Positions 10,741-61,253 of a stretch of DNA of 64,000 nt are shown here, in pieces. A model generated the notes under the pieces. The model ran no database searches. It saw only the letters and a list, made by a program, of their open reading frames with translations, and had not been told where the DNA came from. The translations under genes and the position numbers were made by a program. Position 1 is the first letter of the stretch, and every line of letters begins with the position of its first letter. The stretch comes from a virus, in IMG/VR virus record IMGVR_UViG_3300045988_056908, positions 65,792 to 129,791 of that record; one strand, written 5' to 3'.

Positions 10741-11005
10741 ACTTAATTAGTATTTCTGGACCACAGAATAATGTATTCCCTATATCCCTTACCATTATAC
10801 CATAATAAGACATTATCCTCTGTAATATCTACATATGGGTCGTAATAAATAAAGGCGATTATCAAGACTATTGCTAGTATAATAGCTAACATAGATTATC
10901 GAGTTTTAACGGAACCAGGTCTAGTGGTTGCAGCTTGGAAATCTTTTCCCTGCTTATCCCACCATGCCTGTTTATCCTTTAACCATTTTACTTTTTTCTT
11001 GTATT

Positions 11006-31010: not shown

Positions 31011-32984
31011 TTACTTCACTTCTTCAAACTCAGTTGTTTCAGCTTTCTTCTCCTCCAACTCTTTCTTGCCGAGAACACTTTTCAGTGTATCAGCGAAAGG
31101 TATAGAGCGAAGCAAGTCGAACGCAGGATTCAAGTTCTCAGCAGTTTTAGCCATGAAGTTACCAGCGGTATTCTCGTTACCATAAACAGTAACCTGTCCA
31201 AGGTGAACGTGTTCAAACATCTGAGCAGATGCTTCTGCAATACCTGTCAACTGGTCAACTGTCTTGTACTGAACCACCATTTCCGGAGTCAAGCCAGATT
31301 CAATCATCTTCTGGACTGCCAGAGCAGGAGCCATTTCAATAGCCTGGACTTTATCAGCCTCAGCCATCAAAGATGCTCTCTTACCCTCAGCTTCAGCAAG
31401 CAGTTTCTTTCTTGTACCTTCAGCTTCGGCTTCTAGCTGCAACTTTGTAGCATTTGCTTTAGCCTCCGCTTCTTTCAGAATTTCAGCAGCCTTAGCTTCT
31501 GCTTCAAGTACAGCTTTCTGCTTAACAGCTTCTGCCTCAATCGTAATACGTTCCTTCTCCTTTTGAGCAGGAACAATCGTCTCAGCATGAAGCTTAGCTT
31601 CCATAGCCAATGCAGCTGCTTCATTTACTTCCAGTTGCTTTTCTTGCTTAGTTTTCTCGATAGTCATTTGAGCTTCTACCTTAGAAGTTCCTGCTACCTT
31701 TTCAGCTTCAGCCTTAGCTTTCTCGGCTTCTCCCTTAGCTTTAGAGACTTCAATCGTGGCATTTTGTTCTGCCACTCCTGCAATCTTATCAGCTTCGGCT
31801 GCCTTTACACGCTTGTCTGACTCATACTTAGCAACTGCAGCTTCCTGTTCGTTAATTGCCTTTTGCGTCTCAGCTTCCTGTTTTTGCTTAGCCTGAGCAA
31901 TACGAGTTTGTTTCTCTGCTTCTGCTTCTGCTTTCTTAGAGTCAGCTTCTGCTTTAGCCTTAGCTACATTAGCCTCAGCCAGTGATTCAGACTCTGCTCT
32001 ATTAGAATCGGCTTCTGCTTGAGCTTTAGCTATAGCTGAAATTTTCTCAGCTTCTGCTTTAGCTTTCTCCGATTCCGCTGCAGTATTAGCTTTAGCAATA
32101 TTGGCAGCTTGCTCAGCTTTCTGATTAGCAATACCTGATTGCTTATTCTTCTCAGCTTCTGCAAGTTTGATTTCCTTCTCCTGGTTAATCTCTGCCACAC
32201 GAACCTCTTGCTCTTGTCTAGTCTGAGCAACAGTAGTTTCACGCTCTTTCTCAGCGTCTGCTACAGCAATTTCACGTTGCTTGTTGGTTTCTGCAATCTG
32301 AATATCTCCTTTCTTCTTCTCTTCTGCAATATCAGCCTGTGCCTGAGCAAGAGCTTTAGTTGCAGCTTTCTGACCTAGATTCTTGATATAGTTTGCATCA
32401 TCCGAAATATCAGCATTGTTAATGTTGATAATACTGAAACCTACCTTATTCAACTCGGTCTCAATATTCTCCTTAGCTTTGCCGATAAACTTGATTCTAT
32501 CAGCGTTAATTTCCTCAATCGTCATCGTAGCCATCAAGCTTCTCACTTCACCAATGAGAATATCCTTGATTTGGTCTGAGATTTCAGAAGTTTTAGCTGT
32601 TAAGAATCTGCTTGCAGCATTTTGCATTAATGTTTGAGTAGTTCCAATACCAGTGGTCAATGTTACAGGAATAGTTACCTTAATCATTTGACTGGAAACA
32701 CCAGTAACATTTACTTGAATTTGGATAGGTTTCAAAGACATTTTAGCCCAGTCTTGAATTACTGGCATTACGAATGTACCTCCACCATGAATGATTTTGG
32801 ACGGCAGAATAACTTCCTCAGGCTTTCCAGTCTTCTCGTTAACTACTTTTTTCTTACCAGCCTTACCAAACACAACCAAGATTTCATCACTAGCACACTT
32901 ACGATACCGTGACAAAAGTCCAATAAAGGTTAAAACTACTAGCAATACAATAACACCTGCTACAATAAGAGTTTCTGTTGTCAT
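31011..32984 (-). CDS. flotillin-like SPFH/band-7 protein with a long Ala/Glu/Lys-rich coiled-coil C-terminus
   Basis: N-terminal TM helix and an SPFH-like region (ILVVFGKAGKK...VVQYKTVDQL). About 400 aa of AEAEKxK coiled-coil repeats. Follows an NfeD-like gene, as in bacterial nfeD-floT operons. Confidence 0.7.
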   Translation of the reverse strand: MTTETLIVAGVIVLLVVLTFIGLLSRYRKCASDEILVVFGKAGKKKVVNEKTGKPEEVILPSKIIHGGGTFVMPVIQDWAKMSLKPIQIQVNVTGVSSQMIKVTIPVTLTTGIGTTQTLMQNAASRFLTAKTSEISDQIKDILIGEVRSLMATMTIEEINADRIKFIGKAKENIETELNKVGFSIININNADISDDANYIKNLGQKAATKALAQAQADIAEEKKKGDIQIAETNKQREIAVADAEKERETTVAQTRQEQEVRVAEINQEKEIKLAEAEKNKQSGIANQKAEQAANIAKANTAAESEKAKAEAEKISAIAKAQAEADSNRAESESLAEANVAKAKAEADSKKAEAEAEKQTRIAQAKQKQEAETQKAINEQEAAVAKYESDKRVKAAEADKIAGVAEQNATIEVSKAKGEAEKAKAEAEKVAGTSKVEAQMTIEKTKQEKQLEVNEAAALAMEAKLHAETIVPAQKEKERITIEAEAVKQKAVLEAEAKAAEILKEAEAKANATKLQLEAEAEGTRKKLLAEAEGKRASLMAEADKVQAIEMAPALAVQKMIESGLTPEMVVQYKTVDQLTGIAEASAQMFEHVHLGQVTVYGNENTAGNFMAKTAENLNPAFDLLRSIPFADTLKSVLGKKELEEKKAETTEFEEVK

Positions 32985-33002
32985 CTTTTAAAAATTCTTT
33001 TT

Positions 33003-33521
33003 TTAGTTAAAATAATACTTTCCATTCTCAAATTTAGAAATTACCACACGAGTACCAACCATATATCCCATTTTTGGGACTTCTGGATAGGCTACAATTT
33101 CCTCAGAACCTCCATTTACTTCAATAGTAATGAAGAAATGGTTTTCACAAGGAACTGTGATAATTCCAACCCTTCCAATCAAGGCTTCGCCCTCTTCTGG
33201 AATAACTTGATGCTGGAGTTTTAAACAGAATTTATATAAGTAGTAAAGTATAACCACGAAAAGAATACCGCATACTAATGCGATTAGATAATCATACCAT
33301 TCTACAGAATGGGATACGGATTGCTTAACACAAAGCCATCCACTAGCTCCCATTATAAAATGGATTAATCCCTTAAATGAGACAATATCACTCACGTTCA
33401 TATCTAGTTCTCCATCTAAATCAACATCTAAGTCAGTGTCTCCACCAAACCAAGATAAAATGAATTGAACTAGAAAAATGCCATATGAAATGGCTGCCAA
33501 AAGATAATACACTTCACTCAT
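33003..33521 (-). CDS. NfeD-like membrane protein (OB-fold C-terminus)
   Basis: Multiple TM helices followed by GRVGIITV...IEVNGGSEEIVAY beta-barrel-like tail. Immediately upstream of the flotillin-like gene. Confidence 0.6.
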   Translation of the reverse strand: MSEVYYLLAAISYGIFLVQFILSWFGGDTDLDVDLDGELDMNVSDIVSFKGLIHFIMGASGWLCVKQSVSHSVEWYDYLIALVCGILFVVILYYLYKFCLKLQHQVIPEEGEALIGRVGIITVPCENHFFITIEVNGGSEEIVAYPEVPKMGYMVGTRVVISKFENGKYYFN

Positions 33522-33745
33522 CTCTTACAATATTTACAATCTGGGTCATGAACTACTCCGGAAATCTTATACTGTCCAAATCCTTCAACAAACTTAATGT
33601 ACTGATGATTCTTGTACTTGAAGTGAACTGCGTTATCAAACGGAATAATCCCGTCTGGAGCGCTCATAGTCGCTTTTGACTCTGGTACTGGACCACAGCT
33701 ATATAGCAACATAAGCCCCAATAAAACAATTACTAATCTTTTCAC
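33518..33745 (-). CDS. small lipoprotein
   Basis: MKRLVIVLLGLMLLYSCG: signal peptide with lipobox. Confidence 0.5.
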   Translation of the reverse strand: MKRLVIVLLGLMLLYSCGPVPESKATMSAPDGIIPFDNAVHFKYKNHQYIKFVEGFGQYKISGVVHDPDCKYCKR

Positions 33746-34032: not shown

Positions 34033-34512
34033 TCAGCCAAATATACAAATCATTGAAGATATAAAGAATACAGCTCCTCCTACTACACTTATCCAACCTC
34101 CAGCATCTTCATCGTTTTTGGATAGTCTACCTCTACCAGTTAATAGCATAAATACTGATATTCCTAATAGTATGGTGCCTACTACAATTCCGGCTATCTC
34201 CTTATAGAGGAGTTTCCACACTACGATAGTTATTGCTGTTTGTCCTAGGTTGGATTCTGCTATTCTTATGGCTGAATCTTCAACTGCTTTTAAGGTTTCA
34301 TTGACTGCTACGCCAATTTCCTTACCAAGATTTGCATACTCAGAAACTTCCTTGATTTCACCCTTTATAGCTTTCTCTGTTGTTATCTTCTCAATTTGAG
34401 TTCTAGTATCGCTTGGCAACTTATCATAGTCTTCTTGTGATATAGTTATCTGAGAAAAAGCTGCTACGCTCATCCAGAGCATAGCAAGCATAAATACAAG
34501 GAACTTTTTCAT
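34033..34512 (-). CDS. membrane protein (signal peptide plus C-terminal TM helices)
   Basis: MKKFLVFMLAMLWMSVAAFSQ signal peptide; hydrophobic C-terminal third. Confidence 0.5.
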   Translation of the reverse strand: MKKFLVFMLAMLWMSVAAFSQITISQEDYDKLPSDTRTQIEKITTEKAIKGEIKEVSEYANLGKEIGVAVNETLKAVEDSAIRIAESNLGQTAITIVVWKLLYKEIAGIVVGTILLGISVFMLLTGRGRLSKNDEDAGGWISVVGGAVFFISSMICIFG

Positions 34513-35072
34513 TAGTCAAGCCATTCAAATTCTTCACCCTTGAAATGTCTTGCAAAACAAGCATCGAACACTAGCTTTCCAAACTGGGTTGATACGTATT
34601 TGGCAATTTCTTCAGATTTGCACGCTAGCATCCCGACATGGGAATAGGCACTGCCGACGCCATCGTAAGAATAGAAAAAGCCGAGACCCGCAATGCCGCC
34701 ATAAGACGCGCTGCCGCCTACCAACGCGAATTTCTCGCCCTGATAACGGAAGTGACCAATGACCTCTGCATCCTTCGGAACTGATTTCATTCTAAAGAAG
34801 CGAACCCAGGGATACCATATAGTACCAGTTAACAGATTGAACTTGTGACCTTCATTTAGCGCATCCAAGACTGTCTGCAACTTAGCTAGAGAATTTACAG
34901 ATCTATTGTAGTAAATAGTATCTCTAGTAACACACCCTAGATAGTTTACAGCATCCTCATAGGTTCTTATCCGTCCCATAATGTTTTCTGGAACGATTTC
35001 AACATTGCCAGTTTCGGCATTATAGATGGGTTTATAACCATCTGGACATTCAATTTCAATTGTCTTTTTCAT
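34512..35072 (-). CDS. remote DGR target protein (CLec-like variable C-terminal region)
   Basis: C-terminal LVGGSASYGGIAGLGFFYSYDGVGSAYSHVG parallels the tail-fibre VR LLVGGYASDGGNAGLGYFFSNRVVGFASSTVG. Its coding DNA matches TR 59740-59837 except mainly at TR adenines. Confidence 0.7.
   Translation of the reverse strand: MKKTIEIECPDGYKPIYNAETGNVEIVPENIMGRIRTYEDAVNYLGCVTRDTIYYNRSVNSLAKLQTVLDALNEGHKFNLLTGTIWYPWVRFFRMKSVPKDAEVIGHFRYQGEKFALVGGSASYGGIAGLGFFYSYDGVGSAYSHVGMLACKSEEIAKYVSTQFGKLVFDACFARHFKGEEFEWLD
34632..34729 (-). repeat. DGR variable repeat 2 (VR2)
   Basis: About 95 nt align to TR. 17 mismatches sit at TR adenines; 4 non-A mismatches cluster at the 3' end (IMH-like). A GC-rich island in an AT-rich genome. 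Confidence 0.7.
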
Positions 35073-37959: not shown

Positions 37960-38919
37960 TTAAATCTTCTCTTCAGAGATTAGTGCGTTCCCACAAGTAA
38001 TTCGGTCAGAATCTTCCTCCTTAGATGGAACAAACACTATAACATCCCAACCTTCTTTCAATAAAGGTTGTTCAAAGCGACGATAAACGTCATAATCAGA
38101 GTATCCAGTTACCTGGAAACCATTCTCTATAGCAGAAGCTGTTTCATGTATAGGAGTGATTTTAACAATAAATTTCTCCCTATCAAATAGCTTTGACAAT
38201 TCCTTCGCATCGAGAATAGTTTGTGAGGTTACTGGAAAATTTAGAGTATACTTTCTGCCTACTGGCATTGGTAACTCGTCAGCCAACCGGGAAATTTGTG
38301 CTAGTGACAAACTCTTAGAGTCAAACAGCTCATTTCTCTGTTCATCGTCTGTAGAATTGATTGAAAACTGCAAGCCTGCTTCTCCATTGTAGAACTCATT
38401 TTTTATGCTACACCAAACCTGTAAGAAGTTTCCAAGCTTATTATTTGCTTTCGGAAGCATCGTGGAAACTACTGGATGAACAGTTTTAGCTATTAACCCT
38501 GCAGACTTAACCACACCTCTGAGAGCAAGTCCAAATGCTAATACATTATCATTCCATGTTGGTTCTCCCATTCTAGCAAAGTGTACATTAAACCTGTCTG
38601 TTTCTCTGACACTTTCGCCTTCTATAATAGTTCGGATTTGTCTATCCATATCTTCTATAGAAGCATTTCCATAGAATCCAAACTTGGGAACATCACAGAA
38701 TTTACAATGCATAGGACAGCCTTTCTGAGTTGAAATAGTTGCTACCCATTTCTTGCTTAGGTCTACTGCTGTATTCTCTACTCCATTGATTTCCTTAGTT
38801 AGACCTAAGAAATCAGCCTTGATGTTGTTCTCCTTACCATAGTCTCCTACAGTTAAGAACTCTAGTCTATGTTCTGTATCGACATAGATTTTTCCTGTAT
38901 GGGTTAATATTGTTTTCAT
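37960..38919 (-). CDS. radical SAM domain protein
   Basis: CPMHCKFC (CX3CX2C) cluster-binding motif near residue 70. 319 aa. Confidence 0.65.
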   Translation of the reverse strand: MKTILTHTGKIYVDTEHRLEFLTVGDYGKENNIKADFLGLTKEINGVENTAVDLSKKWVATISTQKGCPMHCKFCDVPKFGFYGNASIEDMDRQIRTIIEGESVRETDRFNVHFARMGEPTWNDNVLAFGLALRGVVKSAGLIAKTVHPVVSTMLPKANNKLGNFLQVWCSIKNEFYNGEAGLQFSINSTDDEQRNELFDSKSLSLAQISRLADELPMPVGRKYTLNFPVTSQTILDAKELSKLFDREKFIVKITPIHETASAIENGFQVTGYSDYDVYRRFEQPLLKEGWDVIVFVPSKEEDSDRITCGNALISEEKI

Positions 38920-39671: not shown

Positions 39672-41032
39672 GGTTTTCTTTTTAATTCGTTAAATCTTTT
39701 TCTTGCTAATTTTCCATTCACAAATGTTTCTGTAACTGTTCTGATGCCTTCTATGTGAATGGTATACTCGAAGGCGTGGGTTCCAGTGAGAGTTATCACT
39801 CTTCCCCCATGAATCTGTAAATCTTGCGCGAACAGTTGAATCGCAGTGTAATCTGTTGAATTTTCTCATTTTCTTTTTCTTTTAATCCTGACTACCTATT
39901 TCTAGGTAGTTTCGTCTTAATTTTCAAAGACTCGTCAGAGGATTTTTAAAAATATCCCCACCGCTGTGGGATAAAAAATGAACACTATCAAAAGACCTTC
40001 CTGTGCCACTCTCCTTTGAATTGTTTCACAACAATTACATAGTCTCTGGGCGTACCCATTATAATCTCCAATAATACACAACAATAGTTCCCTACTCTGG
40101 ACTTGAACCAGAATCTTCTCCTTTAGAGAGAGATATACTGACTTGTACTAGTAGGGAAATACTCCACCTGCCTAAGCTCCCTATGGGAGCTGTAGGCTAT
40201 CTAGAATAAGATGGAGAGTTATTTAGATAGTTTCCTACGCTATCTACGTTACCAACGTCCACTAAGAATATAGGTAGCTAATCCATATTCTTGCGACTGA
40301 GTTCGAGGTAGGAAATATACCCTTATGAGGTATCCTCTTATCAGCTAGCCTATCCTTATCGCTCCGCGATAAGGGTTTCTAGCGGCTTATACTAGGCAAC
40401 TTCTAAATAAATAAAATGCATAACTATAAGTGATATGCTTTGGTCGACTGGCATATCAGCAGTACTTCATAATGTTGCTATAAGCGACCAACCCTATAGC
40501 TCAATCCTCTTGTAATAGTGTTTAAGTTTGCGAATATACACATTACAATCGTAGCAGTTATTTTCGGATATTGGGCTATCTGCGTAACCCCGCTTTTTGT
40601 TGCCTTTTTATAGGCTGATGTTAGAGTAAATAATCATTGTAGTATGAGTTATAAAACTCGTCCTACTGGCGATTTTTTGAAAACTGGAAAAAGTCGGAAA
40701 ATTGGGTGTCGGGGTTGTGGACAATTCTTCTCCTTACTCTCCATATTTTCACGTGAAACATACACGATTTTACTAGAAATGATAGTCTTTCCTATCAGCC
40801 AGACATAAAACTAAAACTACTACAAAAGTTAACTCGGTTTTTGATTTTTTTTTGTTTTGTTGTTGATTTCTCCGTTGACCAATGTTCCAATGATGGAGTT
40901 CATATGGGCATTTTATTTTAACTCATAATACCTTAGAGCTGCACGTTTGACTTATTTTAAATCTCGTTGTGCGCTGAGATTGACTCTAAGATTCGGTCAC
41001 ACTCTCACTTATTTATACACGAGAGAGTCGTG
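39672..41032. other. about 1.36 kb of ORF-poor DNA carrying several perfect hairpins (39893-39910, 39953-39972, 40168-40182, 40349-40371) and a T-rich tract (40845-40860)
   Basis: No ORF of 60 aa or more on either strand. Examples: CTACCTATTTCTAGGTAG, CCTTATCGCTCCGCGATAAGG, GCTCCCTATGGGAGC. Confidence 0.4.
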
Positions 41033-42582: not shown

Positions 42583-42654
42583 TGCCCTATGGTGTAATGG
42601 TCAGCACAGATGACTCTAAATCATTTAGTCTGGGTTCGAATCCTAGTAGGGCAA
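42583..42654 (+). tRNA. amber suppressor tRNA, anticodon CUA, derived from tRNA-Gln (predicted to insert Gln at UAG)
   Basis: TGCCCTA TG GTGTAATGGTCAGCAC A GATGA CTCTAAA TCATT TAGT CTGGGTTCGAATCCTAG TAGGGCA A. Anticodon loop CTCTAAA gives CUA. The backbone (TGGTGTAATGGT..., CCTAGTAG...) is closely similar to tRNA-Gln(UUG) at 30390-30461. Confidence 0.8.
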
Positions 42655-42684
42655 CGCCAAAATTAATAGTTATGATAAATTTAA

Positions 42685-46635: not shown

Positions 46636-47208
46636 ATGGCTAATTAGGAAGAATTACAGAAGGCATTCATGGCATACTTGATACAAGATGCCCAAGCACA
46701 AGGAATACAATTACAATCAGAGCAAGATTTATAGGCTTACGCTGAGTAGCTTGGAGAAGATGGAATCAAAGCCAAGTATCAAGAATTTATGTAGAAGATG
46801 CAAGGCGGAGTTATGGCTAGACTTGGAGCTAAACTAGAATACTATAAAAAATTAAAAGGAGTATGCCCAGAAGGAGAGGAACTTGTTTATTTTAAACAGG
46901 GAGGAAGAATCTGCAAAGCTTGCCAAAAAGCATAGAAAGGAACTAAGGTTACTAAGAAAGCTAATGAAGTTGACAAGTTCAAAGCTGGAAGAGCTTAGTA
47001 TAAAAAGGATATGAAATCTGCAAAGGATGAAGCGTCCAGAGATTCCGTATCAATTAATAAATATAATGACCAGGAGGTTATGGCGAACAGGGGACACAAG
47101 GGAAATTTCAAAAATGGAAAATGGGTTCCAGATAGAACAAAGTATGCTAAGAAGGATGCTTGTGGTTCTAAAATGAAAGTAAGTAAATGCGGTTCTAAAA
47201 TGAAATAA
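46636..47208 (+). CDS. hypothetical basic protein; about 8 in-frame TAG codons read as sense
   Basis: MAN(TAG)EEL(TAG)KAFMAYLI(TAG)DA(TAG)AQGIQLQSEQDL(TAG)AYAE(TAG)LGEDG... ends ...CGSKMKVSKCGSKMK then TAA. 573 nt, in frame. Confidence 0.55.
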
Positions 47209-47238
47209 AAAGATTAAAGATGTTAATGTTAATGATTG

Positions 47239-47805
47239 ATGAGTATGAATGTATTTAATTATAACACTTTAACTAAATAGTTAGAGATAAATGAACCAGA
47301 GCTTCTTCTAGTTAAAGAGTTTAAGGCTTTGATACAGAGAGATAAATCTGTTGACAAGGAACGAGTAACTAGAGAATTGTCTTACATTTATCTAGCTATT
47401 GATTGGAAGAGTCCTTATAGCCAATATTCAGAACATGAAAGACATGATGAAGCTATTAGTGACTCTGGACTATCTGAATCCGAATTTAATGACCCGTTAT
47501 TCAGGGAAGCCTGTAGAAAATACCGAGCATTGTAGGATTCTAACAAATCAATAAAACTTCTAGAAGCAGCTAAAAGAGCAGCTGACTAGTTTATTGATTA
47601 TTTTGATACTATAGTAGATTTAAATGAACGTGATAATAATGGCAAACCCGTCTTTCAAGCTGAAAAGGTAATGAAAGAAATGGCTACTCTTCATAAAGTT
47701 CATGAAGAATTAGTAACACTAGAAGAGCAGGTTAAGAAAGAGCTTACAGAACAATCTACTGTAAGAGGTGGAGCTACAGACGGCTTTGACCCAGGAGACT
47801 TTTAA
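47239..47805 (+). CDS. hypothetical protein (4 TAG read as sense)
   Basis: MSMNVFNYNTLTK(TAG)LEINEPELLLVKEFKALIQRDKSVDKERV... ends ...GFDPGDF then TAA. In frame. Confidence 0.55.
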
Positions 47806-47807
47806 TT

Positions 47808-50168
47808 ATGCCTAGAAAGAAAAAAATATTACCTGAAGAAATCTAGAATATAGTAGATTAGGTAAGAGAGAAAGAACAAAAAGAGGATGCCAAAGAAGCT
47901 AGAGAACTAGTATAGAAGATAAGAGAGGAAAGAGGCAAAAATGCTGATTATTGGGATGTAAAAAGAGGAGATAAGATAGAGGTATTTGACCCTACTTTAT
48001 CTTATGAAATAACTGGATATAGACCAATAGATGAAACACATGGTCTTGACTTCGACCCAGATTGGTTTACTGAGACCAGAGAAGTGTATAGAAAAACTGG
48101 AAAGTATTGTCCATATCTAAAAGATAGTAAGAGATATAATGAGTTTTGGAAGGAATAGTATAGAAGATGTAAATATGGAATGACTGTTAATGGTTATACA
48201 ATTACTGGAGATAACTATTTCTTCCTAAACTTCTACTAGCTTCCTATTATTGATGATAACAAGGCATCTGGAGAAGGAACAAGTAGTGACTTTCCTATAT
48301 TTTTCGCATCTCATTATATGTTCTTTCATTATCTATAGATGGCTAGAGTTCTGCATAAACACGCAGCTCTTATGAAAGCTCGTTCTATTGGATTCTCTGA
48401 AATAAATGCATCCTTATCTGCAAGAATGTATTCAGTAATCAGAAGAAGCAGAGTAATGATTACTTGTTTTAATGATACCTTCCTTAAAGGTACTTTTAGT
48501 AAGTTTGATAATGCTTTAACATTCTTGAATACTTGTACAGGAGGAGGATTCTTCAAACTACGTTTGATTGACCAAGACTTAAGAAAGAAGTCTGGTAAAC
48601 AGATTAAGGTAAACGGACAGTTTGAGGATGTTGGATTTAAATCAGAAGTAGTTGGAATAAATGGAGCTAAGGCATCTAATATTCGTGGAGACCGTGTTGA
48701 CCTATTAATATATGATGAAGCGGGGTCTTGGCCCGGACTAGATACTGCTGTAGTGCAGGGACAAGAGCTTTGTGAAGTTCAGGGTAAACCTCGTGGAACA
48801 ATGTTATTTGGAGGTACTGGTGGTGATATGGGTGCTCCATTAGCAGGTCTTAAGAAGATATATTACAATCCAAAAGCTTACAAGGTTCTTCCATTTAGAC
48901 ACAATTATACACAGGACGGAACTACTATTGAAAGTGGGTTCTTCATTCCATATTTTGTCTAGTCTCTAAATTCAGAATACATGGACCATAGAGGTGTATG
49001 TAATACAGTAGAATATAAAAAGTATCTATAGGAAGAGCGCGACAATTTATTAGCAGTTCCAGACGACTATCTAAAGAAGTGTGCCGAACGATGTTGGAAT
49101 GCAGAAGAAGCATTTAATCTTGAAGGTGTTAACAAGTTCAACAAGATTCTTATTGCGGACCAGTTAGCTAATATAAGACTTAAGAAAATAGGACCAAGAC
49201 CAGAATCTGGATACATAGACTACTTCTATAAAAATAATAAACACACCTAGGATAATATAGATGGTTTTAAATGGATTCCTAATATTAACGGAAAAGTAAA
49301 AATACTTGAACATCCTGTATGGTCTGATTTGTATAAAGAGTAGATGGATAAACTTAGATAGGAAGCTGAGGAAAGGGGAGAAGAATTTGAATCTCCAGCG
49401 TACAAAGAAATGCATGATTTATATGTTGCAGGAATAGACGGTATTGATATAGGAGCTAGTCAAACTTCAAAAGAAACAAGAGATCCTTCTGATTTCTGTA
49501 TAACTATAAAAAGAAGAGCATTTGGTCTAAACGAACCGTAGTATGTTGCTATGTATAAAGACAGACCTAATGACATTAGAGAAGCCTATAAAATAGCTAT
49601 GTGTTTAGCTAGATACTATAATTGTAGAATAAACATAGAAGCTACCCGTGTAGGTATGATTACCTGGGCTAGAGAAAAGGGTTGTTTAAACTACTTTATG
49701 AAAAGACCTAGAGCTACTCTAACAGACGTCAAGAATGGAACTACTAAATAGTACGGAACACCCGCTACCAAAACTATTATAGAACAACATACTGATTTGA
49801 CGGCAGCCTTTATTGAGGATTTCTGTCATACTATATGGTTTGAAGAAATGTTAGACCAATTTACTGGATATAATGATGAGAATAAAGGTAAATTCGATAT
49901 TGTAGCCGCTGTGGGAATGACAGAATTGGCAGACTAGGAATTGTCAGGAAGATAGCCAGTGCTTGTTGAAAAAGAAGTTGAACAATTCCAAGATTATGGT
50001 TATTATTACGACGAGAGAGGAATCAAAAGATTTGGGGTTATACCAACTTCTAAGACTTTTGAAACTAACATACAAAAAAATGAATACGATGACCCATACA
50101 GAATTGAAACAAGTGATTCTAGGTTATATGAGAGACTTGTACAAAATGGAATACGTAGGTGGGCTTGA
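47808..50168 (+). CDS. terL: terminase large subunit (TerL); about 25 in-frame TAG codons read as sense
   Basis: Single frame from ATG 47808 to TGA 50168 (786 aa) once TAG is read as sense. ATPase region KQIKVNGQFEDVGF...RVDLLIYDEAGSW. Nuclease region DFCITIKRR...IAMCLARYYNCRINIEATRVGMITWAREKG. Listed fragments 48339.., 49551.., and 49959..50168 are all in this frame. Confidence 0.75.
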
Positions 50169-50424
50169 AATTCAGAACCTAGATCCAGTTGGTTATAAGG
50201 TATCGTTTAACTTTGATAGGTCAGAGATGCCTTTAGTCATTATAGCTGATTTACCTGATGAAGAATTTCTCCCATTTATAAAGGAAGAATTAAGAAGTAG
50301 GAAGTTACAAAGAGTTAAATACTATAATGCAACTAAACTTCCTCCAGAACAGCATAATTTATGTTATGAAAGAAAAAGAACTGATAGACAAGACGAACGA
50401 GGCTATTGCGGAGCTTGTATATGA
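50080..50424 (+). CDS. hypothetical protein overlapping the TerL 3' end in another frame (start uncertain)
   Basis: Frame +1 ORF (listed 49963..50424). First plausible ATG after the TerL core is at 50080. Confidence 0.3.
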   Translation: MNTMTHTELKQVILGYMRDLYKMEYVGGLEIQNLDPVGYKVSFNFDRSEMPLVIIADLPDEEFLPFIKEELRSRKLQRVKYYNATKLPPEQHNLCYERKRTDRQDERGYCGACI

Positions 50425-52537
50425 TAAGTACGAATTATAGAAAGCCTATAATTACTACAACGGAAAGAGAGACCCAGAATAGTTTCGTTACCTGGAAGAA
50501 AACTTCGGAATAGGTAGTCCTACTTCTGTAGAATTTACACCGTTACTAAAGAAGCACGTAGATGCTCTAGTAGGGGAATATCTAGGAACCCCTATCCTTC
50601 CGAAGATTTCTTGTAAGGATTCAGATACCATTAGTAATATCACTAGAGAAAAATAGTTGGAAATAACTAAAGGGATAGTTAAATTTCTTAGAGACCATTT
50701 AAGTAATTCTATTCTGAAATTTATCGACGGAAAAGATATTACAGATAAAGCCGTGAAGACTTAGTTAGATAAAATTATTCAAGACATTGATTAGTCTTTT
50801 ATTTCTCAATATGAGATAGCTGCATAGAATATTATTCATTATATCATGCAGTCTAGAGAAACCGATTTAATAACTAAACTCCGATAGTTACTTACAGATT
50901 TATTAATTACTGGCTATACATTTTTCAGAGTAAAATCATCATCTTCTGGAACTAACATAGAAATAGAAGTTCTGAATCCTTTAAATACCTTCGTAGATAG
51001 GAATCCAGAATCTCCATATGTTAGAAATTCGTACAGAGTAGTAGTTAGAAAATGGATGAGTAAAAGCTAGATATTAGCTAAATACGGAAAAGAAATCTCT
51101 AGAGAAGATTTGAAAAGACTAAAAGATGAATGGAGAGCTGATAATTCAGCTGCAGTTTATAGAAGAGTTTATGGTGACACTTGTACTATAGTAAACGAAG
51201 ATTAGAATCATGAAACTATTCCTGGATATCCAGATAATGAATATAGTGCTCATAGATTTTAGTTAATTCCTGTTTATGATGTAGAGTGGATAGAAACTGA
51301 TGACGATTTTGTAATGTAGAGATACAATACCATTAGAATTGGAGAAGAAATATATATTCTGAGAGGTCTAGACAAGACTGTTATGAGGTCGAAAGATAAT
51401 CCTAATTTCTGCTCTTTGTCTGTGAATGGGGTATATTTCTTAAATCGTTCTCAACAACCGTACTCTCTGATATTAAAGTGTGCACATCTACAGGATAGAT
51501 ATGACTTGTTAAATTATTATAGGGATAACCTGATAGCTAACAGCGGTACTGCTGGAGTAATCATGGATATGTCATTGCTTCCTACTAACCTAGGCGTAAA
51601 ATGGCCAGAAAGAGTATAGAAATGGTTAGCATACAAGAAGGGTGGTATCATGTGGATTGATTCTACTTAGGAAGGGAGAAATGATGGAGCGCAAGCACCT
51701 AACTAGATATACAATGGATTTGATGATACCTTAAAAGCTTAGGCTGTATAGGCTATTGAATTAGCAATTCAATCAGTAGAACAAACTACATCATCTATAA
51801 CTGGAGTATTTAGAGAAAGATTAAATGGAATAGAAACTCACGATGCTGTAACTAACATTAAGCAAGGTGTTACTAACTCTTACATAGTAACCAAGCATTA
51901 TTTCTAGTAGATGGACCTAATCACTTGTGAAATATTATTGGATAGTCTAAACTAGGCTAAAATAACATATAAGAAAGGATTGACTGGTACTATTATACTT
52001 GGAGATAAATACTAGCAGATATTTACAGCGCTTCCAGAATATTTTACGGTTACTGATTATGACATCCATATAACTTCTAGCTCTGAAGTAATGGAAGATT
52101 TACAAACTATTAAAGCCATTATTCCAGAGTTTGTTAAGAGTCAGCAAATGGATCCTGACATCATATTTGAAGCACTAACTGCTAAGAGTCTTACAGACCT
52201 TAAATATAAGGTTAAGAAAGCAGTATAGATTCGTAAAGAAGAAAACAATTAGCTATAGCAGCTATAGGAAAAACTGGAAGAAACTTCACAATAGGCACAG
52301 CAGTTACAGCAAGAACTATAGAAAGCTTAGTAGAAGATAGAAAGTTTGGATGAATAGAGATTAGGATTAGAGTAGCAGAAAATGTAGTTAGAATATAAAG
52401 TTAACTGGCTCAAAGCTCAATCTGATTCTACATATAAAGATAGACAAATGGATATAGAAGAAAAGAGAACTGAAATAGAGTTAGCTTAGCTTCATGATGG
52501 AAATCCATATAATGACAAAATAAGACAAATACATTAA
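50327..52537 (+). CDS. portal protein (many in-frame TAG codons read as sense; start may be 50366)
   Basis: 736-aa frame opens after TAA 50291-50293. M(TAG)LNFL...MKEKELIDKTNEAIAELVYDKYEL(TAG)KAYNYYNGKRD.... Position and size right after TerL. Q-rich coiled-coil C-terminus. Confidence 0.6.
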
Positions 52538-52538
52538 T

Positions 52539-53273
52539 ATGGCAACTGGAACAATTGTATATAATAAGGATTAGCAATAGATTTATCCTATTTCAGATGG
52601 TTCAGTAATTATTAGTAATGCTTCTGGTTCCAAATCAAATGTGGAAGAAGATTTAAAGAAACTATTTAAATAGGTGTCAGACCTTTCTGGTTCTAGTGAA
52701 GCGGTAAATAATATTATTATTAAGATTCATTACTTACCTGCTGACACTGCTGAAGAATCTGAGATAAAATTATCTACTAAATAGTGGACTGATACTTTTG
52801 AACTTCCAACTGAAGAGAATCCATACATCTGGAAAAGAACTAAATTTACTTTCTAGGGAGCTGACGAATCTCAGGGAACTACTATTTATGAGATTGTAGC
52901 AAGCGATGTTTCTACTATTATCTAGAATATATACACTAGAACTGAGGGAATAACTCCAGTTATTGAGTATAAGCAGAAAACAGATGAGGATGGAAATCCT
53001 CTATATGTAGATTCGGAAGGACATGAAACAACGACTGTTACTCCAACTAAAGTGTATGACTATAATTATTATTGGAATGGAAAACCAGCTGGTAAGTTAA
53101 ATAGTCTACCACCGACCCCTAAAGGTTAGTCATATACATGGACAGACTATCCTCAAGATATTAGTTTATCATTTAGTTCAGTTTTTATGTCTAGACGTAT
53201 ACGACAAGAAGGTAAGTGGAAACCATTTTCTACTCCTGCTCAATATGGTCAATGGCCTACTACTGAGTCTTAA
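52539..53273 (+). CDS. virion-associated hypothetical protein (TAG recoded)
   Basis: MATGTIVYNKD(TAG)(TAG)(TAG)IYPISDGSVIISN... 244 aa, in frame to TAA. Confidence 0.5.
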
Positions 53274-53283
53274 TTATTATAAT

Positions 53284-54012
53284 ATGGAATTTAGTATTGA
53301 TATACATACCCAGATTAACGGGGAAATAACTATTGAAGACTTTTCAAAGGAATATGGATAGTATATTGATGAAGATTTAGAGGTAGTAACTTCCTATGAT
53401 TCTTATAAGTATAGTGAAAGTGCTACCCTAAATACTATCATAAAAGTTAGTATAGGAGATGCTACTTTGATAGACGTACTTCTCAATGACCATACAGAGG
53501 ATTTAGACTCTTGTACATTTAAGGTGAAAGAAGATGGATATTATGTAGTAGACCACATAATTCTTCCTAATATGAAATGGTATGAAAATTCATCTGATGA
53601 ATACAAGGAGTATTATGAAACTATCTATATAACTGATGGAGAGAAACTATATAAAGAAGTAGATGGAGAGCTAGAGGAATGTACTGTAAAAGAAATCCTT
53701 GAAAGAAATATAGAAGGGACTACTATCAAAAAATGTAAGGTAGATGTGTTCTTTACAGGAAATCTGCAATAGTGTTATATTAACTACTGTAAGAAACTCT
53801 TTGACTCTTTATTAAATAAGTGTTTAACTAGAGAACATGATGCAGATATATTTGCAAGAGATTTTATCTGGATGACACTTAACATTATAGATTATTTAAT
53901 AGGCTTTAAACAATTCATGGAAGCTGAAAGATTGTTAGCAATGTTCCGTACTTGCGGTGGATTCTGTAACAATCACCATGAACATAAACGTATAGGTTGT
54001 GGATGCTCTTAA
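53284..54012 (+). CDS. hypothetical protein with Cys-rich C-terminus (TAG recoded)
   Basis: MEFSIDIHT(TAG)INGE... incorporates listed ORF 53467..53772 ... ends CGGFCNNHHEHKRIGCGCS then TAA. Confidence 0.5.
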
Positions 54013-54167
54013 AAGAAAGGCTATTAAAAGGTATGAGGATTTCCTTAAAAGGGTTAGAAAGGGATATAGACCAGATTATTAGGATATTTTGAATCTAATT
54101 TGTTTTATTAACCTACCCGTAAAATTAGATAATCACGAATTTATTAAATAGCAATTATTGAATCATA

Positions 54168-57625: not shown

Positions 57626-57630
57626 ATAGT

Positions 57631-57840: not shown

Positions 57841-57841
57841 T

Positions 57842-59662
57842 ATGGCAGCTATCAAATCTATAAAGGTTAGAGAAACCGTATATGACTTAAAGGCTACCTA
57901 TGATGGCTCTGGAAATGTTATAGATTAGACATATGCAAAATCTAGTGCCATTCCAACTAAAGTGTCCTAGTTATAGAATGATGAAAATTATTTAAAGGAA
58001 CACTAGGATATAAGTGGTTTAGCTACTAAACCGGAGTTGGAAAGTAAGGTAGATAAAGAATTAGGAAAAGGACTTTCTGAAGCTAATTACACAGAAACTG
58101 AAAAACAGAAACTTAGTGGTATTGCAGATAATGCAAATAATTATGTACACCCAACTACTTCTGGAAATAAACACATACCTGCTGGAGGAGCACTTGGATA
58201 GATTTTAACCTTTTCTGAAGATGGGACTGCATAGTGGGCAGATACTAGTACTAAGTTAAAGAAACAATTTGATGCTCTTAATACTGCTTGGGAAGAATTA
58301 CAAAAAGAGCAATAGAGTCTAAGCAAACAAGTCACAGAGTTAAGCAGTAACGTAGACTTATACTCTTACGGAGTAGAATGGGATATTACCGTATTTTCTC
58401 CTATCCTTACTAGAATAGGAAACCCACTGTTACATAAATCCCTTCCTATTTAGTCTGCTTACAGAGGATGTGTAGCAAATAACGGTGCGGTAAATTACTA
58501 TTTATATCCAGACGATTGGGCTTACAAAGAAGATGGAAATACTCCTTCTGTGCTTGATGGAACTGATGGAACTGTAAGAGTCCACACTCCTAAATTTTAT
58601 GGTAAATCAGGCTCTAATGGAAATAAAAGATGGGTTAGAATTTCTCTAGTAAAGCTTGATGATTCATGGATAGAAATACCAGAACTATTAATTGACGCAT
58701 ATAGAAATACCGTTGATAATACTGTGTCAGCAACCCCTAAAGCTGTGTCTGTGGTCAATACTACAGAAGCATTTAGAGGTGGTGGAAATAGAGCACAATT
58801 CGATGAGTATCTAACTACTGAACTTGATACCAAAGATGCTTTTAGAAGCGATTTAGGAAAACCTAGAACTAATGTTTCTAGAACTAATATGAGAACTTAT
58901 GCTACAAATGCAGGTTCTGAATTATTATGCTATGAATATTATAAATGGATATTCTACTGGAACTATGTAATAGAATATGCTAACTTTAACTCTCAGGCTG
59001 CCTATAATGCCGAGCTTACTTCTGATGGTTATCGTCAAGGAGGACTTGGTCCTGGAGTTACAGACTGGAGTAACTCTGATACAAGTTGGTCTGAATATAA
59101 TGGAACCTATCCTATTACTCCATGTGGTTATTGTAATGATATTGGTAACTTCACTGGAATCAAAGATTTAGTTATTCCAGAGTGTACTGCAACAAACGGA
59201 ACAGGTACAGTAGCGACTAAGACATTTAAAGTTCCAAGATGGAGAGGTTTTGATAATCCATTTGGAGATATTTGGACAAACCTAGATGGAGTAGTTATTC
59301 AAAGAACTGCGGCAAATGAAATCAGTAGTGTATATACTACCACAAACAAGGAAGAGTTTACTGACGTAATTGGCAATAAGACCGTAGCAGGATACGAGGT
59401 AGCGCAAGATGGATACATTAAAGAGCTTGACTTGGGAGAGACAGCAGAGATTATACCATCTTCTTGTACTGGAGCCTCAGCTACAACTTATATGTGTGAC
59501 TACCACTCTTGCAACGCTACCTCTACAGCGCTTCGCACGCTGCTGGTGGGCGGCTACGCGTCTGATGGCGGCAATGCGGGTCTCGGCTATTTCTTTTCTA
59601 ACCGTGTCGTCGGCTTTGCCTCTTCCACTGTCGGGTTCAGGACTCTAAACAGAGTATCTTAA
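57842..59662 (+). CDS. tail fibre or receptor-binding protein; primary DGR target with C-terminal variable region (TAG recoded)
   Basis: 606-aa frame incorporating listed ORF 58550..59662. C-terminal CLec-like segment CDYHSCNATSTALRTLLVGGYASDGGNAGLGYFFSNRVVGFASSTVGFRTLNRVS encoded by GC-rich VR1. Confidence 0.7.
59540..59637 (+). repeat. DGR variable repeat 1 (VR1)
   Basis: Aligns to TR 59740-59837 with about 17 mismatches at TR adenines and about 3 elsewhere. Confidence 0.75.
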
Positions 59663-59739: not shown

Positions 59740-59837
59740 CTGCTAGTAGGCAGCAACGCGAATAATGGCAGCAATGCAGGTCTCAGCTATTTCAATTCTA
59801 ACAATGGCGTCGGCTTTGCCGATTCCATTGTCGAGTT
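59740..59837 (+). repeat. DGR template repeat (TR)
   Basis: Non-coding A-rich copy of VR1 and VR2, located between the target gene and the RT. Followed by hairpin CTTGCC TCTA GGCAAG (59893-59910). Confidence 0.75.
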
Positions 59838-59978: not shown

Positions 59979-61253
59979 TTGAAACGTGTAGGATATTTGC
60001 ACGAACGAGTGTATGATTTGAAAAACATCGAATTAGCTGATGATAAGGCTAGAAGAAATAAATCAATTCGATGTGGTATTAAGTAGCATGATAAGAATAG
60101 ATTAGAAGAAAATAAGGAATTATCAGACAAATTAAAATAGCTAATCTATTAGACTTCTGAATATAGTACATTTATAATATATGAGCCTAAAGAAAGATTA
60201 ATCTTTAGACTTCCATATTACCCTGATAGAATCACTCATCATGCTATAATGAATATTATGGAACCTATCTGGACCAGCATTTTTATAGATTAGACATATT
60301 CCTCTATAAGAAATAGAGGGACTCATAAGGTAGAGTATGATTTATTCAAGGTATTGTAGAAATACCCAGATGAAACTAAATACTGCCTAAAAATGGATAT
60401 AAGAAAATTTTATCCATCTATAACACATGACATCCTGTATGAGATGTTGTAGAAGAAAATAAAGGATAAGAAACTGTTAAGTCTATTGAAGGAAATAATA
60501 TATTCAGCCAAAGGAGTTCCTATTGGAAACTATCTATCATAGTTCTTTGCAAATTTATATCTGACATATTTTGACCACTGGATAAAAGAGGAGTTAAAAT
60601 GTAAGTACTACTTTCGATATGCTGACGATATTGTGATTCTTGGTAATGACAAGAATTATTTGAGAAATGTATTAGTATCTATAAAACTGTATTTGAAACA
60701 AGTTCTTAATTTAGAATTAAAACCTAACTACTAGATATTTCCAGTAGAAAGTAGAGGAGTAGATTTTGTAGGCTACAAATTTTATCACACTTACGTTCTA
60801 TTAAGAAAATCTATAAAAATGAGAATGTTTAGGCTTATAAATCTATATAAGCAAAATAAGATTGATAAAGAAGAATTGGAAAGAAGAATGAGATCTTATT
60901 TCGGCTGGATGAAATTCTGTAATTCTAAGAATTTGTTGAAAAAGATAGAAACTTTGACTGGTTTGAAGTTCTCAAATTGGAATGGAAAGGAAGTCAATAT
61001 ATCTAAGTTTTATAATAAGTATATTCATATCATAGAGGTGGTTGATTATCATAGCCATTTCAGAGTGCACTTTATGTATAACAACAAACCCTATTATTTT
61101 AAAAGCAAGAATAAGAAATTATATTATTCTTTGTTTAGATACAAATTTCCTATAAATTTTAAAGTAACACCTCATGTTAGAACCAAAGAGAATACAAATG
61201 AACGTTTGTCCTTAGGTAATTCAAAAACTTGGCAACGGTACTTATTATTATAA
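59979..61253 (+). CDS. DGR reverse transcriptase (TAG recoded; start TTG 59979 or GTG 60009)
   Basis: RT motifs in one frame: YEPKERLIFRLPYYPDRITHHAIMNIMEPIW (motifs 1-2), LKMDIRKFYPSIT (A), KGVPIGNYLS(TAG)FFANLYL (B), RYADDIVILG (C, YADD), SYFGWMKFCNS. Several in-frame TAG. Ends TAA 61251-61253. Confidence 0.75.

What the first reader, a model, noticed from the sequence alone, without database searches (positions are those of the whole stretch)
34512..35072. Second, remote DGR variable repeat in an early-block gene 25 kb from the TR
The minus-strand coding sequence 34632-34729 (in a 186-aa ORF) matches the TR at 59740-59837 over about 95 nt. There are 17 differences at TR adenines and only 4 non-A differences, clustered at the 3' end (IMH-like). 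The encoded peptide (LVGGSASYGGIAGLGFFYSYDGVGSAYSHVG) parallels the tail-fibre VR peptide. So one RT and one TR appear to diversify two targets: a tail fibre, and a small protein embedded among membrane/lipoprotein genes on the opposite strand and in the opposite transcriptional module.
Basis: seen in the sequence. Interest (0 to 1): 0.8.

Follow-up and report, generated by a model that had tools for sequence, protein, structure and literature searches.

The report
Second remote DGR target in crAss-like phage
A gut phage uses one mutagenic reverse-transcriptase cassette to hypermutate two genes: its tail protein and, 25 kb away on the other strand, a small non-structural protein of unknown fold; such two-target phage cassettes are already known, but this target protein family has not been described.

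Summary
There are 16 mismatches at TR adenines and 4 at non-adenines (Fisher p=7e-9).

Comparative data settle the interpretation. In 21 related ~190-kb phage genomes, VR2 differs from that genome's own TR at 15-25 adenines, with no non-A mismatch in 18 of 21. Genomes identical over the other 464 nt of the gene differ at 11-22 of the 92 VR2 positions. So VR2 is a recurrently rewritten target of the same TR/RT as the tail-protein VR1.

This window's TR has lost 6 of the 30 adenines in the family-consensus TR.

The 186-aa target belongs to phrog_11581 and shares only the 37-aa VR cassette with the tail protein. A confident AlphaFold model (pLDDT 93.7) matches no solved structure, including C-type-lectin DGR targets.

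The same pairing, tail protein plus small phrog_11581 protein in a non-structural module, recurs in cultured Bacteroides phage Versailles.

Non-adjacent, non-structural second targets of phage DGRs are already published (Quimbyvirus, Bacuni phages). This is therefore a new member of a known kind, with an undescribed target family.

The parts
34512..35072 (-). Gene for the 186-aa second DGR target (phrog_11581 family). It has no signal peptide, no in-frame TAG, and its VR is internal (residues 117-147).
   Evidence: ORF. phrog_11581 E=6e-17. No Pfam or NCBIfam hit. 836 homologues found, and its 90%-identity cluster holds 3,514 distinct sequences. AF2 model pLDDT 93.7.
34632..34723 (-). VR2: the 92-nt variable repeat, in frame, homologous to TR 59744-59835.
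   Evidence: establish the match. Four-state variation occurs only at codons matching TR AAY/TAT codons in 39 genomes. Ten positions carry 12-16 different residues, and an eleventh (132, the TAT codon) carries 6, among 120 representatives.
34632..34637 (-). 3' boundary element GTCGGG. The TR has GTCGAG here. The G is present in all 39 VR2 copies of the gene alignment and in every VR1 examined, so it marks the limit of variable transfer or is an IMH-like discriminator.
59740..59837 (+). Template repeat (TR), non-coding, between the tail-protein gene and the RT gene. In this window it differs from the family consensus at six sites, all consensus-A to non-A (59807, 59812, 59815, 59816, 59821, 59828).
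   Evidence: Consensus TR from 24 relatives. Further consensus copies in L103-L106.
59540..59637 (+). VR1, at the C-terminus of the tail protein.
   Evidence: Against the window TR: 16 A and 3 non-A mismatches. Against the consensus TR: 22 A and 0 non-A.
57842..59662 (+). Tail-protein gene, the first DGR target: 606 aa when TAG is read as sense, with 8 in-frame TAG.
   Evidence: phrog_5302 'tail protein' E=2e-84.
59642..59655 (+). Hairpin ACTCT-AAAC-AGAGT just downstream of VR1. VR2 has no counterpart.
   Evidence: z=-2.6 for the VR1 flank, z=-0.9 for the VR2 flank.
59979..61253 (+). DGR reverse transcriptase gene: 424 aa with 8 in-frame TAG. It contains IGNYLSQ (GxxxSQ) and YADD.
   Evidence: RVT_1 E=1.5e-18. 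phrog_1423 E=1e-112.
40087..40157 (-). Suppressor tRNA with anticodon CTA, which reads TAG. It is needed to translate the RT and the tail protein.
   Evidence: where ARAGORN labels it tRNA-Pyl. TAG-recoded late genes.
42583..42655 (+). Second suppressor tRNA (CTA).
34033..34512 (-). 159-aa protein with a signal peptide and C-terminal transmembrane segments. Its start overlaps the stop of the 186-aa gene (TAATG), and the pairing is conserved in relatives.
   Evidence: The signal peptide and transmembrane segments are read from the sequence by eye.

Best explanation
The 186-aa gene carries a genuine second variable repeat (VR2) of the phage's single diversity-generating retroelement.

Mechanism. 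TR (59740-59837) is transcribed with the RT gene. The RT copies the TR RNA into cDNA while misreading adenines. The cDNA then replaces the homologous 92-nt stretch in two places: VR1 at the tail-protein C-terminus, 200 nt upstream of TR, and VR2, 25 kb away on the opposite strand.

Outcome. Ten AAY codons and one TAT codon are randomised, giving about 2e12 peptide variants from the consensus TR. Scaffold codons are kept.

What is shown directly. Adenine-specific TR/VR2 differences in many genomes, hypervariation restricted to those codons, and VR2 turnover that is fast relative to the rest of the gene.

What is inferred.
(a) The RT has 8 in-frame TAG codons, so it can be made only once the amber-suppressor tRNAs act. 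Diversification would therefore occur late, during replication, and new VR2 alleles would be tested in the next infection.
(b) Both target genes point away from the GC-skew minimum and strand switch at about 42 kb. If replication starts there, both are co-directional with their fork, which is the orientation shown experimentally to favour DGR retrohoming.
(c) The target protein has no TAG codons, no signal peptide and non-structural neighbours, here and in other phages. It is most likely a non-structural, non-late hypervariable binding protein acting inside the infected cell, for example in host takeover or counter-defence, and not a virion receptor-binding protein. I put this functional part at about 0.4-0.5.

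In this particular genome the TR has lost 6 adenines, and neither VR yet carries that signature.
For: - The window alignment and its A-bias.
- The consensus TR explains every VR2 and VR1 mismatch as an A-site change (20 A/0 non-A and 22 A/0 non-A).
- In 21 genomes with their own TR, VR1 and VR2, VR2 shows 15-25 A mismatches and 0 non-A in 18 of 21.
- Column analysis of 39 genomes shows four-state variation only at TR AAY/TAT codons.
- Among 120 cluster representatives, 10 residues carry 12-16 amino acids and one more (residue 132) carries 6, all matching TR A-codons; only residue 180 outside the VR also reaches 6.
- Pairs with 0 differences in the other 464 nt of the gene differ at 11-22 of 92 VR2 nt, and divergence is saturated regardless of flank divergence.
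- The 90%-identity cluster holds 3,514 distinct sequences.
- Each relative has only one TR and two VRs.
- RT identity and the GxxxSQ motif.
- TAG recoding of late genes only; P(0 TAG in 186 codons at the late-gene TAG rate)=0.006.
- GC-skew sign change at about 42 kb. Orientation rule from PMC12875486.
- The same architecture in cultured phage Versailles: the small homologue sits in the replication/recombination module, about 43 kb from TR, with 15 A mismatches plus 2 non-A shared with VR1 at the 3' end.
- A distant family member sits next to NUDIX, PNKP and RNA-ligase genes.
Against: - In this window the TR cannot have rewritten either VR since its six substitutions. VR1 and VR2 each disagree with it at 3-4 non-A sites, so current activity in this genome is unproven.
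- No Avd gene was found near the cassette.
- VR2 lacks the downstream hairpin seen at VR1.
- No read-level data were available.
- The origin position is inferred from skew, which is confounded with coding strand.
- The intracellular or early role rests on gene position and codon usage only. Virion association is not excluded.
Confidence: 0.9

Rival explanations
1. VR2 is a historical target, but the DGR of this particular genome is decaying or inactive. The TR has been eroded and no longer rewrites VR1 or VR2.
For: The window TR carries six A-to-non-A changes. Neither VR1 nor VR2 carries the matching G,G,TT,G,T signature. The 3' part of a VR is expected to be transferred in every homing event. 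This TR variant was not found in IMG/VR, JGI metagenomes or GTDB genomes.
Against: The RT ORF is intact once TAG is read as sense. The TR keeps 24 adenines and 7 AAY codons. The substitutions may simply be recent, or may be a minority or assembly variant. A genome with an identical RT C-terminus has the consensus TR.
Confidence: 0.25
2. The 186-aa protein is a virion-associated accessory receptor-binding protein encoded outside the structural block. The DGR would then diversify two adsorption devices.
For: Its VR cassette is homologous to that of the tail protein. Published two-target phage DGRs are usually read as adhesins (PMC10743442, PMC8143477). The Versailles homologue is annotated 'tail protein'.
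Against: That annotation probably comes from the VR segment alone, since the phrog_5302 match covers only residues 112-148. Homology to the tail protein is limited to 37 aa. The gene lies in the non-recoded block, among tRNA, SPFH/NfeD and membrane-protein genes here. It lies among recombination and replication genes in Versailles, and beside NUDIX, PNKP and RNA-ligase genes in L107. It has no recognisable virion-attachment domain.
Confidence: 0.3
3. VR2 is templated by a second TR/RT elsewhere in the ~190-kb genome, outside the window, not by the TR at 59740.
For: VR2 has four non-A mismatches to the window TR.
Against: A pattern scan of related full-length contigs finds exactly two loci per genome, one holding VR2 and one holding VR1 plus TR. 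The single TR in each genome explains VR2 with 0 non-A mismatches. VR1, which is adjacent to the TR, shows the same kind of non-A mismatches in the window.
Confidence: 0.03
4. VR2 is an inert paralogous remnant of a tail-fibre C-terminus, and its resemblance to the TR plus the A-bias reflect ordinary drift.
For: None beyond the sequence similarity itself.
Against: Drift cannot produce 11-22 differences in 92 nt between genomes with 0 differences in the remaining 464 nt. It cannot produce four-state variation restricted to TR-adenine codons, nor 0 non-A mismatches to the cognate TR in 18 of 21 genomes.
Confidence: 0.01

Closest known systems
Quimbyvirus DGR ('Quimbyviridae'; Benler et al. 2021, PMC8008677)
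   Same: One phage RT/TR diversifies two targets. One is in the tail module. The other is distal, on the opposite strand, and interpreted as non-structural. The evidence there also came from A-site variation among near-identical genomes.
   Different: The phage lineage differs (about 75-kb myovirus-like, against a ~190-kb TAG-recoded crAss-like phage). Quimby's second target is described as a C-type lectin protein near methyltransferase, nuclease and tRNA-ligase genes. Here the target is a phrog_11581 protein with no detectable CLec match. Quimby's RT is frameshifted, whereas here it is amber-recoded.
[quoted passage not shown]
   Same: Large crAss-like genomes with tRNA blocks, CTA suppressor tRNAs and amber-interrupted RT genes of about 414 aa with GxxxSQ. 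The tail-fibre target has a C-terminal VR, and most lack Avd.
   Different: That study reports only tail-fibre targets for these groups, with multiple TR-VR pairs only in Lera and ct1yV3. It does not mention the remote 186-aa target. I did not test by phylogeny that the window belongs to this group. TerL is 26-29% identical to crAss-like TerL in GenBank.
Bacuni phages of Bacteroides uniformis and 'tentaclin' phages (PMC8143477, PMC10743442); survey of non-adjacent targets (Wu et al. 2018, PMC5758913)
   Same: These are phage DGRs with two targets, one not adjacent to the RT. The survey found that non-adjacent targets of phage DGRs lie within about 50 kb of the RT.
   Different: Their second targets are adhesin-like (DUF1566/fimbrial-tip-like, or CLec plus Ig 'tentaclins'), with the VR at a terminus. 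Here the target is a 186-aa single-domain protein with an internal VR and no such domains.
Bordetella phage BPP-1 DGR (Mtd/TR/Avd/bRT)
   Same: Adenine-specific mutagenic retrohoming from TR to VR, AAY codon design, a hairpin downstream of the tail-protein VR, and a preference for targets co-directional with replication (PMC12875486).
   Different: No Avd was found. There is no long GC-rich IMH, and only a single invariant G/A difference separates VR from TR (GTCGGG vs GTCGAG). There are two targets on opposite strands, and VR2 has no hairpin.
Bacteroides phage Versailles (ON453897.1), WAK79127.1
   Same: It has a homologous 193-aa protein (33% identity) carrying a VR that matches that phage's TR with 15 A mismatches. 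The gene lies in the non-structural module about 43 kb from the RT, alongside a tail-protein VR1.
   Different: It is a 58-kb cultured phage with the standard genetic code. Both its VRs share a clearer IMH-like 3' element (CGCTTGTGCC against TR CGCTTTTACC). The record annotates the protein as 'tail protein', and I found no paper in the library describing its DGR.

Membership tests
Diversity-generating retroelement (DGR) | Reverse transcriptase of the DGR type (RVT_1 with GxxxSQ in motif 4, and YxDD) | tested here: met
   RVT_1 E=1.5e-18. phrog_1423 E=1e-112. IGNYLSQ and YADD are visible in the translation with TAG read as Q.
Diversity-generating retroelement (DGR) | TR/VR repeat pair whose differences fall only at TR adenines | tested here: met
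   Window: 16 A and 4 non-A for VR2, p=7e-9. Against the consensus TR: 20 A and 0 non-A. In 21 relatives: 15-25 A mismatches, with 0 non-A in 18.
Diversity-generating retroelement (DGR) | Ongoing hypervariation of the VR in natural populations, confined to A-templated positions | tested here: met
   This rests on between-genome comparison. Within-sample read data were not available.
Diversity-generating retroelement (DGR) | Accessory variability determinant (Avd) gene | tested here: inconclusive
   No Avd-like Pfam or PHROG hit among the selected ORFs flanking the cassette and in the late block that were scanned. Not every ORF of the window was scanned, and about two thirds of the genome lies outside it. 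The literature reports that most Zeta crAss-like DGRs lack Avd.
Diversity-generating retroelement (DGR) | IMH at the 3' end of the VR, distinct from IMH* in the TR | tested here: inconclusive
   The only fixed VR/TR difference at the 3' end is GTCGGG against GTCGAG, and the G is essentially fixed across the VR1 and VR2 copies examined. The sequences downstream of VR1 and VR2 are unrelated. The G could equally be a selected glycine codon.
Diversity-generating retroelement (DGR) | Hairpin or cruciform downstream of the target VR | tested here: not met
   Present after VR1 (59642-59655, z=-2.6). Nothing comparable after VR2 (z=-0.9). This feature enhances homing and is not strictly required.
C-type-lectin-fold DGR variable proteins (Mtd, TvpA, TaqVP) | Global fold similarity to solved CLec/FGE-type variable proteins | tested here: not met
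C-type-lectin-fold DGR variable proteins (Mtd, TvpA, TaqVP) | VR forms the C-terminal end of the domain | tested here: not met
   The VR spans residues 117-147 of 186. It is followed by 39 residues predicted as two helices and a strand.
C-type-lectin-fold DGR variable proteins (Mtd, TvpA, TaqVP) | VR-encoded sequence motif shared with a CLec-type target | tested here: met
   63% identity over 32 aa with the tail-protein VR. hhalign probability 96% over 37 columns and nothing beyond them. That the tail protein itself is CLec rests on the literature for Zeta crAss-like tail fibres. My model of it was too poor to test this.
phrog_11581 (phage proteins of unknown function) | Full-length profile match | tested here: met
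   E=6.4e-17, residues 25-176 on profile positions 37-195 of 200. 249 clusters at 50% identity, mostly 150-220 aa apart from shorter fragments.
Zeta crAss-like phages (Crassvirales) | Placement by TerL, portal or MCP phylogeny | not tested
   Only indirect evidence is available: relatives of 185-192 kb, 27 tRNAs with CTA suppressors, TAG-recoded late genes, and TerL 26-29% identical to crAss-like phage TerL.

The most novel reading that the evidence does not exclude
The phrog_11581 proteins are a third structural scaffold for DGR variable regions, neither C-type lectin nor Ig. They would be expressed from the non-recoded, non-late module as intracellular hypervariable binders, for example neutralising variable host defence or takeover targets. 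On this reading, the DGRs of diverse Bacteroidota phages (crAss-like, Versailles-like) routinely diversify both adsorption and an intracellular conflict protein from one template.
Probability: 0.25. Interest if true: 0.8.

Novelty: new member of a known kind. Interest (0 to 1): 0.55.

Why it matters
DGR surveys of metagenomes look only near the RT. Roux et al. 2021 state that remote targets are missed, and the 2025 description of Zeta crAss-like DGRs lists only tail-fibre targets.

This work shows that a whole lineage of abundant ~190-kb gut phages, and at least one unrelated cultured Bacteroides phage, also hypermutate a small non-structural protein family that has no annotation and no solved structural relative. 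That yields a concrete, widespread candidate for a phage-encoded hypervariable protein acting outside adsorption. Because phage Versailles is cultured, it also offers a system in which to test this.

The opposite-strand arrangement around the skew switch is a natural example consistent with the recent finding that DGR targets co-directional with replication are preferred.

Tried and rejected
- Megablast of the locus against GenBank phages gave only a tRNA hit.
- Pfam and NCBIfam gave nothing for the 186-aa protein.
- A profile of the family against PDB sequences found nothing relevant.
- The AF2 model of the tail-protein C-terminal domain was too poor (pLDDT 67.5) to compare the local VR conformation.
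- I tried to confirm the window's deviant TR in independent assemblies. The exact 38-mer is absent from IMG/VR, JGI metagenomes and GTDB genomes. Contigs sharing a nearby protein all carry the consensus TR or a single-base variant of it.
- A second-TR hypothesis was considered and rejected.
- An Avd search among small ORFs near the cassette was negative.
- No hairpin was found downstream of VR2.
- A conserved membrane-protein partner was considered. The 159-aa neighbour is conserved within the lineage but not in Versailles.
- Yutin et al. 2021 on crAss-like phages does not mention DGRs.

Full report
**1. The observation**

The minus-strand ORF 34512-35072 encodes 186 aa. Its segment rc(34632-34723) aligns without gaps, and in the same reading frame, to TR 59744-59835.
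- 72 of 92 positions match.
- 16 of the 20 mismatches fall on the TR's 24 adenines and 4 on its 68 other bases (Fisher p=7e-9).
- An A-degenerate TR pattern finds only VR2, VR1 and TR in the window, and none in 100 shuffles.
- The four nucleotides upstream (59740-59743) are homologous in VR1 but not in VR2.

**2. Context**

The window is part of a large phage genome.
- The plus-strand block from about 46.6 kb encodes TerL, portal, tail proteins and the RT. It is readable only if TAG is sense: 127 TAG in 4,745 codons.
- The minus-strand block 1-43 kb has no in-frame TAG.
- There are 27 tRNA genes, two with anticodon CTA.
- Relatives in IMG/VR are 185-192 kb.
- TerL is distantly related (26-29% identity) to TerL of crAss-like phages.

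These features match published Zeta crAss-like phages, whose DGR RTs are amber-interrupted, about 414 aa long and carry GxxxSQ (PMC12386605). I did not run a phylogeny.

The cassette is laid out as follows: tail-protein gene 57842-59662 with VR1 at 59540-59637, TR at 59740-59837, and RT at 59979-61253 (RVT_1, phrog_1423, motif IGNYLSQ).

**3. Is VR2 a real, active target?**

I fetched the homologous locus from 39 IMG/VR contigs, and every TR-like repeat from the same contigs. Each genome holds exactly one TR, one VR1 and one VR2.

Evidence from genomes where all three repeats were recovered:
- In 21 such genomes, VR2 differs from its own TR at 15-25 adenines, with no non-A mismatch in 18. Two have one non-A mismatch and one has a 6-nt deletion.
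- Column by column, VR2 shows all four bases at codon positions 1 and 2 of the TR's AAY codons. Variation elsewhere in the repeat is rare and nearly always two-state.
- Among 120 cluster representatives, ten residues (121, 123, 124, 127, 134, 136, 137, 141, 143, 145) carry 12-16 different amino acids. Residue 132, templated by TAT, carries 6. Outside the VR only residue 180 also reaches 6.
- Genome pairs with zero differences in the other 464 nt of the gene differ at 11-22 of the 92 VR2 nucleotides. VR2 divergence stays near 16 whatever the flank divergence.
- The window's protein belongs to a 90%-identity cluster of 3,514 distinct sequences.

Together these results show recurrent, targeted, adenine-templated rewriting of VR2 from the same TR that serves VR1.

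**4. The non-A mismatches**

The TR of 24 relatives is essentially invariant. The window's TR differs from that consensus at six sites. All six are consensus-A changed to another base, and all lie in a 22-nt tract: 59807 G, 59812 G, 59815-16 TT, 59821 G, 59828 T.
- Against the consensus TR, the window's VR2 has 20 A and 0 non-A mismatches, and VR1 has 22 and 0.
- Three of the hypervariable VR2 residues (141, 143, 145) correspond to codons that this TR can no longer fully randomise. The accessible diversity at the AAY/TAT codons drops from about 2e12 to about 1e10.
- Neither VR carries the new TR signature, so no fixed homing event has followed the change.
- The pattern is what a mutagenised cDNA, or a VR allele converting part of the TR, would produce.
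- I could not find this TR variant in any searchable collection. Genomes sharing an identical RT C-terminus or an identical downstream gene carry the consensus TR or a one-base variant of it.
- A minority or assembly variant therefore cannot be excluded.

**5. Boundaries and recognition**

Homology begins at 59744/34723. At the 3' end, every VR1 and essentially every VR2 examined reads GTCGGG where the TR reads GTCGAG. Beyond that point the VR1 and VR2 flanks are unrelated. VR1 is followed by a 5-bp/4-nt hairpin, and VR2 is not. Whether the single G/A difference acts as an IMH or is a selected glycine codon is open.

**6. Strand and position**

GC skew is about -0.17 from 1 to 42 kb and about +0.17 from 42 to 64 kb, coincident with the divergence of the two gene blocks. 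If the origin lies there, both target genes point away from it.

Reconstitution work in E. coli showed that DGR retrohoming strongly prefers targets co-directional with replication, and that the preferred orientation switches at oriC. This was interpreted as cDNA annealing to the lagging-strand template (PMC12875486). The opposite-strand position of VR2 is therefore what that model predicts for a target on the other replichore. This is inference, because skew is confounded with coding strand.

**7. The target protein**

It has no Pfam or NCBIfam match and belongs to phrog_11581, of unknown function. The family comprises 249 clusters at 50% identity. Apart from shorter fragments, members are mostly 150-220 aa.

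BLASTP and profile-profile comparison show that it shares only the 32-37-aa VR cassette with the tail protein.

The expected CLec/FGE fold was thus not found. Since this rests on a predicted model and automated searches, I treat "new scaffold" as a possibility, not a result.

**8. Function**

Gene order is conserved in relatives: 81-aa gene, 152-aa gene, tRNA-His, 186-aa target, 159-aa signal-peptide/TM protein, tRNAs, small lipoprotein, NfeD-like gene, SPFH/flotillin-like gene. The target has no signal peptide and no TAG codon (P=0.006 at the late-gene TAG rate).

In cultured Bacteroides phage Versailles (ON453897.1), a 193-aa homologue lies among SbcC, recombinase, NinB, replisome-organiser and DnaC genes.
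- Its VR matches that phage's TR, about 43 kb away next to a tail-protein VR1 and an RT.
- The match has 15 A mismatches and only two non-A, and those two are shared with VR1 at the 3' end.

A more distant member lies beside NUDIX, PNKP and RNA-ligase genes.

The pairing of a tail protein with a small phrog_11581 protein in a non-structural module therefore recurs in unrelated phages. I infer a non-structural hypervariable binding protein, at about 0.4-0.5. A virion accessory protein is the main rival, at about 0.3.

**9. Comparison with what is known**

Non-adjacent second targets of phage DGRs within about 50 kb are documented (Wu et al. 2018). A distal, opposite-strand, presumably non-structural second target was described for Quimbyvirus. 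Two-target DGRs are known in Bacuni and "tentaclin" phages.

The principle is therefore known. What appears undescribed is this target family, its presence in the large TAG-recoded crAss-like lineage (the 2025 Zeta study lists only tail-fibre targets), and its recurrence in phage Versailles, for which I found no DGR description in the library.

**10. Verdict**

It is a new member of a known kind. Interest is moderate (0.55), raised by the unassigned fold, the recurrence across phages and a cultured test system.

Noticed in passing
window 59807-59828 (within TR 59740-59837): The window's TR differs from the otherwise near-invariant family TR at six sites. All are consensus-A changed to G or T, within 22 nt. 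It looks as if the TR itself was partly overwritten by a mutagenised cDNA or by a VR allele. Neither VR carries the resulting signature, and this exact variant is absent from IMG/VR, JGI metagenomes and GTDB genomes.
   Followed up: partly
TR adenines 59745, 59748, 59752, 59770, 59778, 59785, 59812, 59834 (each followed by G) and 59807; compared in about 28 VR1 and 38 VR2 sequences: Adenines in AAY/TAT codons become any base, but adenines followed by G are G in at least 85-90% of VRs and almost never C or T. Three of these sites are synonymous third-codon positions (CTA>CTG, GTA>GTG, GCA>GCG), so protein-level selection cannot explain them. This suggests context-dependent near-deterministic A-to-G copying, biased repair of G.T heteroduplexes, or selection at the nucleotide level.
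   Followed up: partly
window 46636-62105 (+), with tRNAs at 40087-40157 (-) and 42583-42655 (+): Late genes (TerL, portal, tail proteins, RT) contain 127 in-frame TAG codons, while the minus-strand block has none. Two CTA-anticodon suppressor tRNAs, labelled tRNA-Pyl by ARAGORN, sit at the boundary. The DGR RT itself needs amber suppression (8 TAG).
   Followed up: partly
ON453897.1 record 10181-10762 (L099 3863-4444); TR at L100 39832-39946: In cultured Bacteroides phage Versailles, the gene annotated 'tail protein' (WAK79127.1, 193 aa) in the replication/recombination module is a homologue of the 186-aa protein. It carries a second DGR VR with 15 A-site mismatches to the TR about 43 kb away. 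Both of that phage's VRs share CGCTTGTGCC where the TR has CGCTTTTACC.
   Followed up: yes
VR2 of relatives: L015 (6-nt deletion) and protein residues 121-126 and 136-141 in cluster representatives: In-frame deletions are common inside VR2: 44 of 120 representatives are 180-185 aa instead of 186. They lie next to AAY codons, consistent with RT slippage at AAY repeats as noted by Wu et al. 2018.
   Followed up: partly
window 31011-33745 (-): Downstream of the target gene lies a conserved trio: a 75-aa lipoprotein (lipobox LYSC), a 172-aa multi-TM protein that looks NfeD-like by eye (no significant Pfam match), and a 657-aa SPFH/Band 7 (flotillin-like) protein with a long Ala/Glu/Lys-rich coiled region (Pfam E=1.5e-19). 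This is an unusual membrane-microdomain module for a phage.
   Followed up: partly
window 7578-9128 (-), 37960-38919 (-), 11006-12022 (-): Auxiliary genes in the non-recoded block: nicotinamide phosphoribosyltransferase (phrog_448, E=7e-182), a radical-SAM-like protein (CxxxCxxC; weak Pfam hit), and a signal-peptide protein whose C-terminal region matches a PHROG 'membrane protein' family (phrog_26111, E=2.5e-07).
   Followed up: no
window 15423-37907 (-): 25 tRNA genes are interspersed singly or in pairs among the small ORFs of the minus-strand block. tRNA-His lies 30 nt upstream of the target gene, and tRNA-Trp and tRNA-Ser lie just downstream of its membrane-protein neighbour.
   Followed up: no
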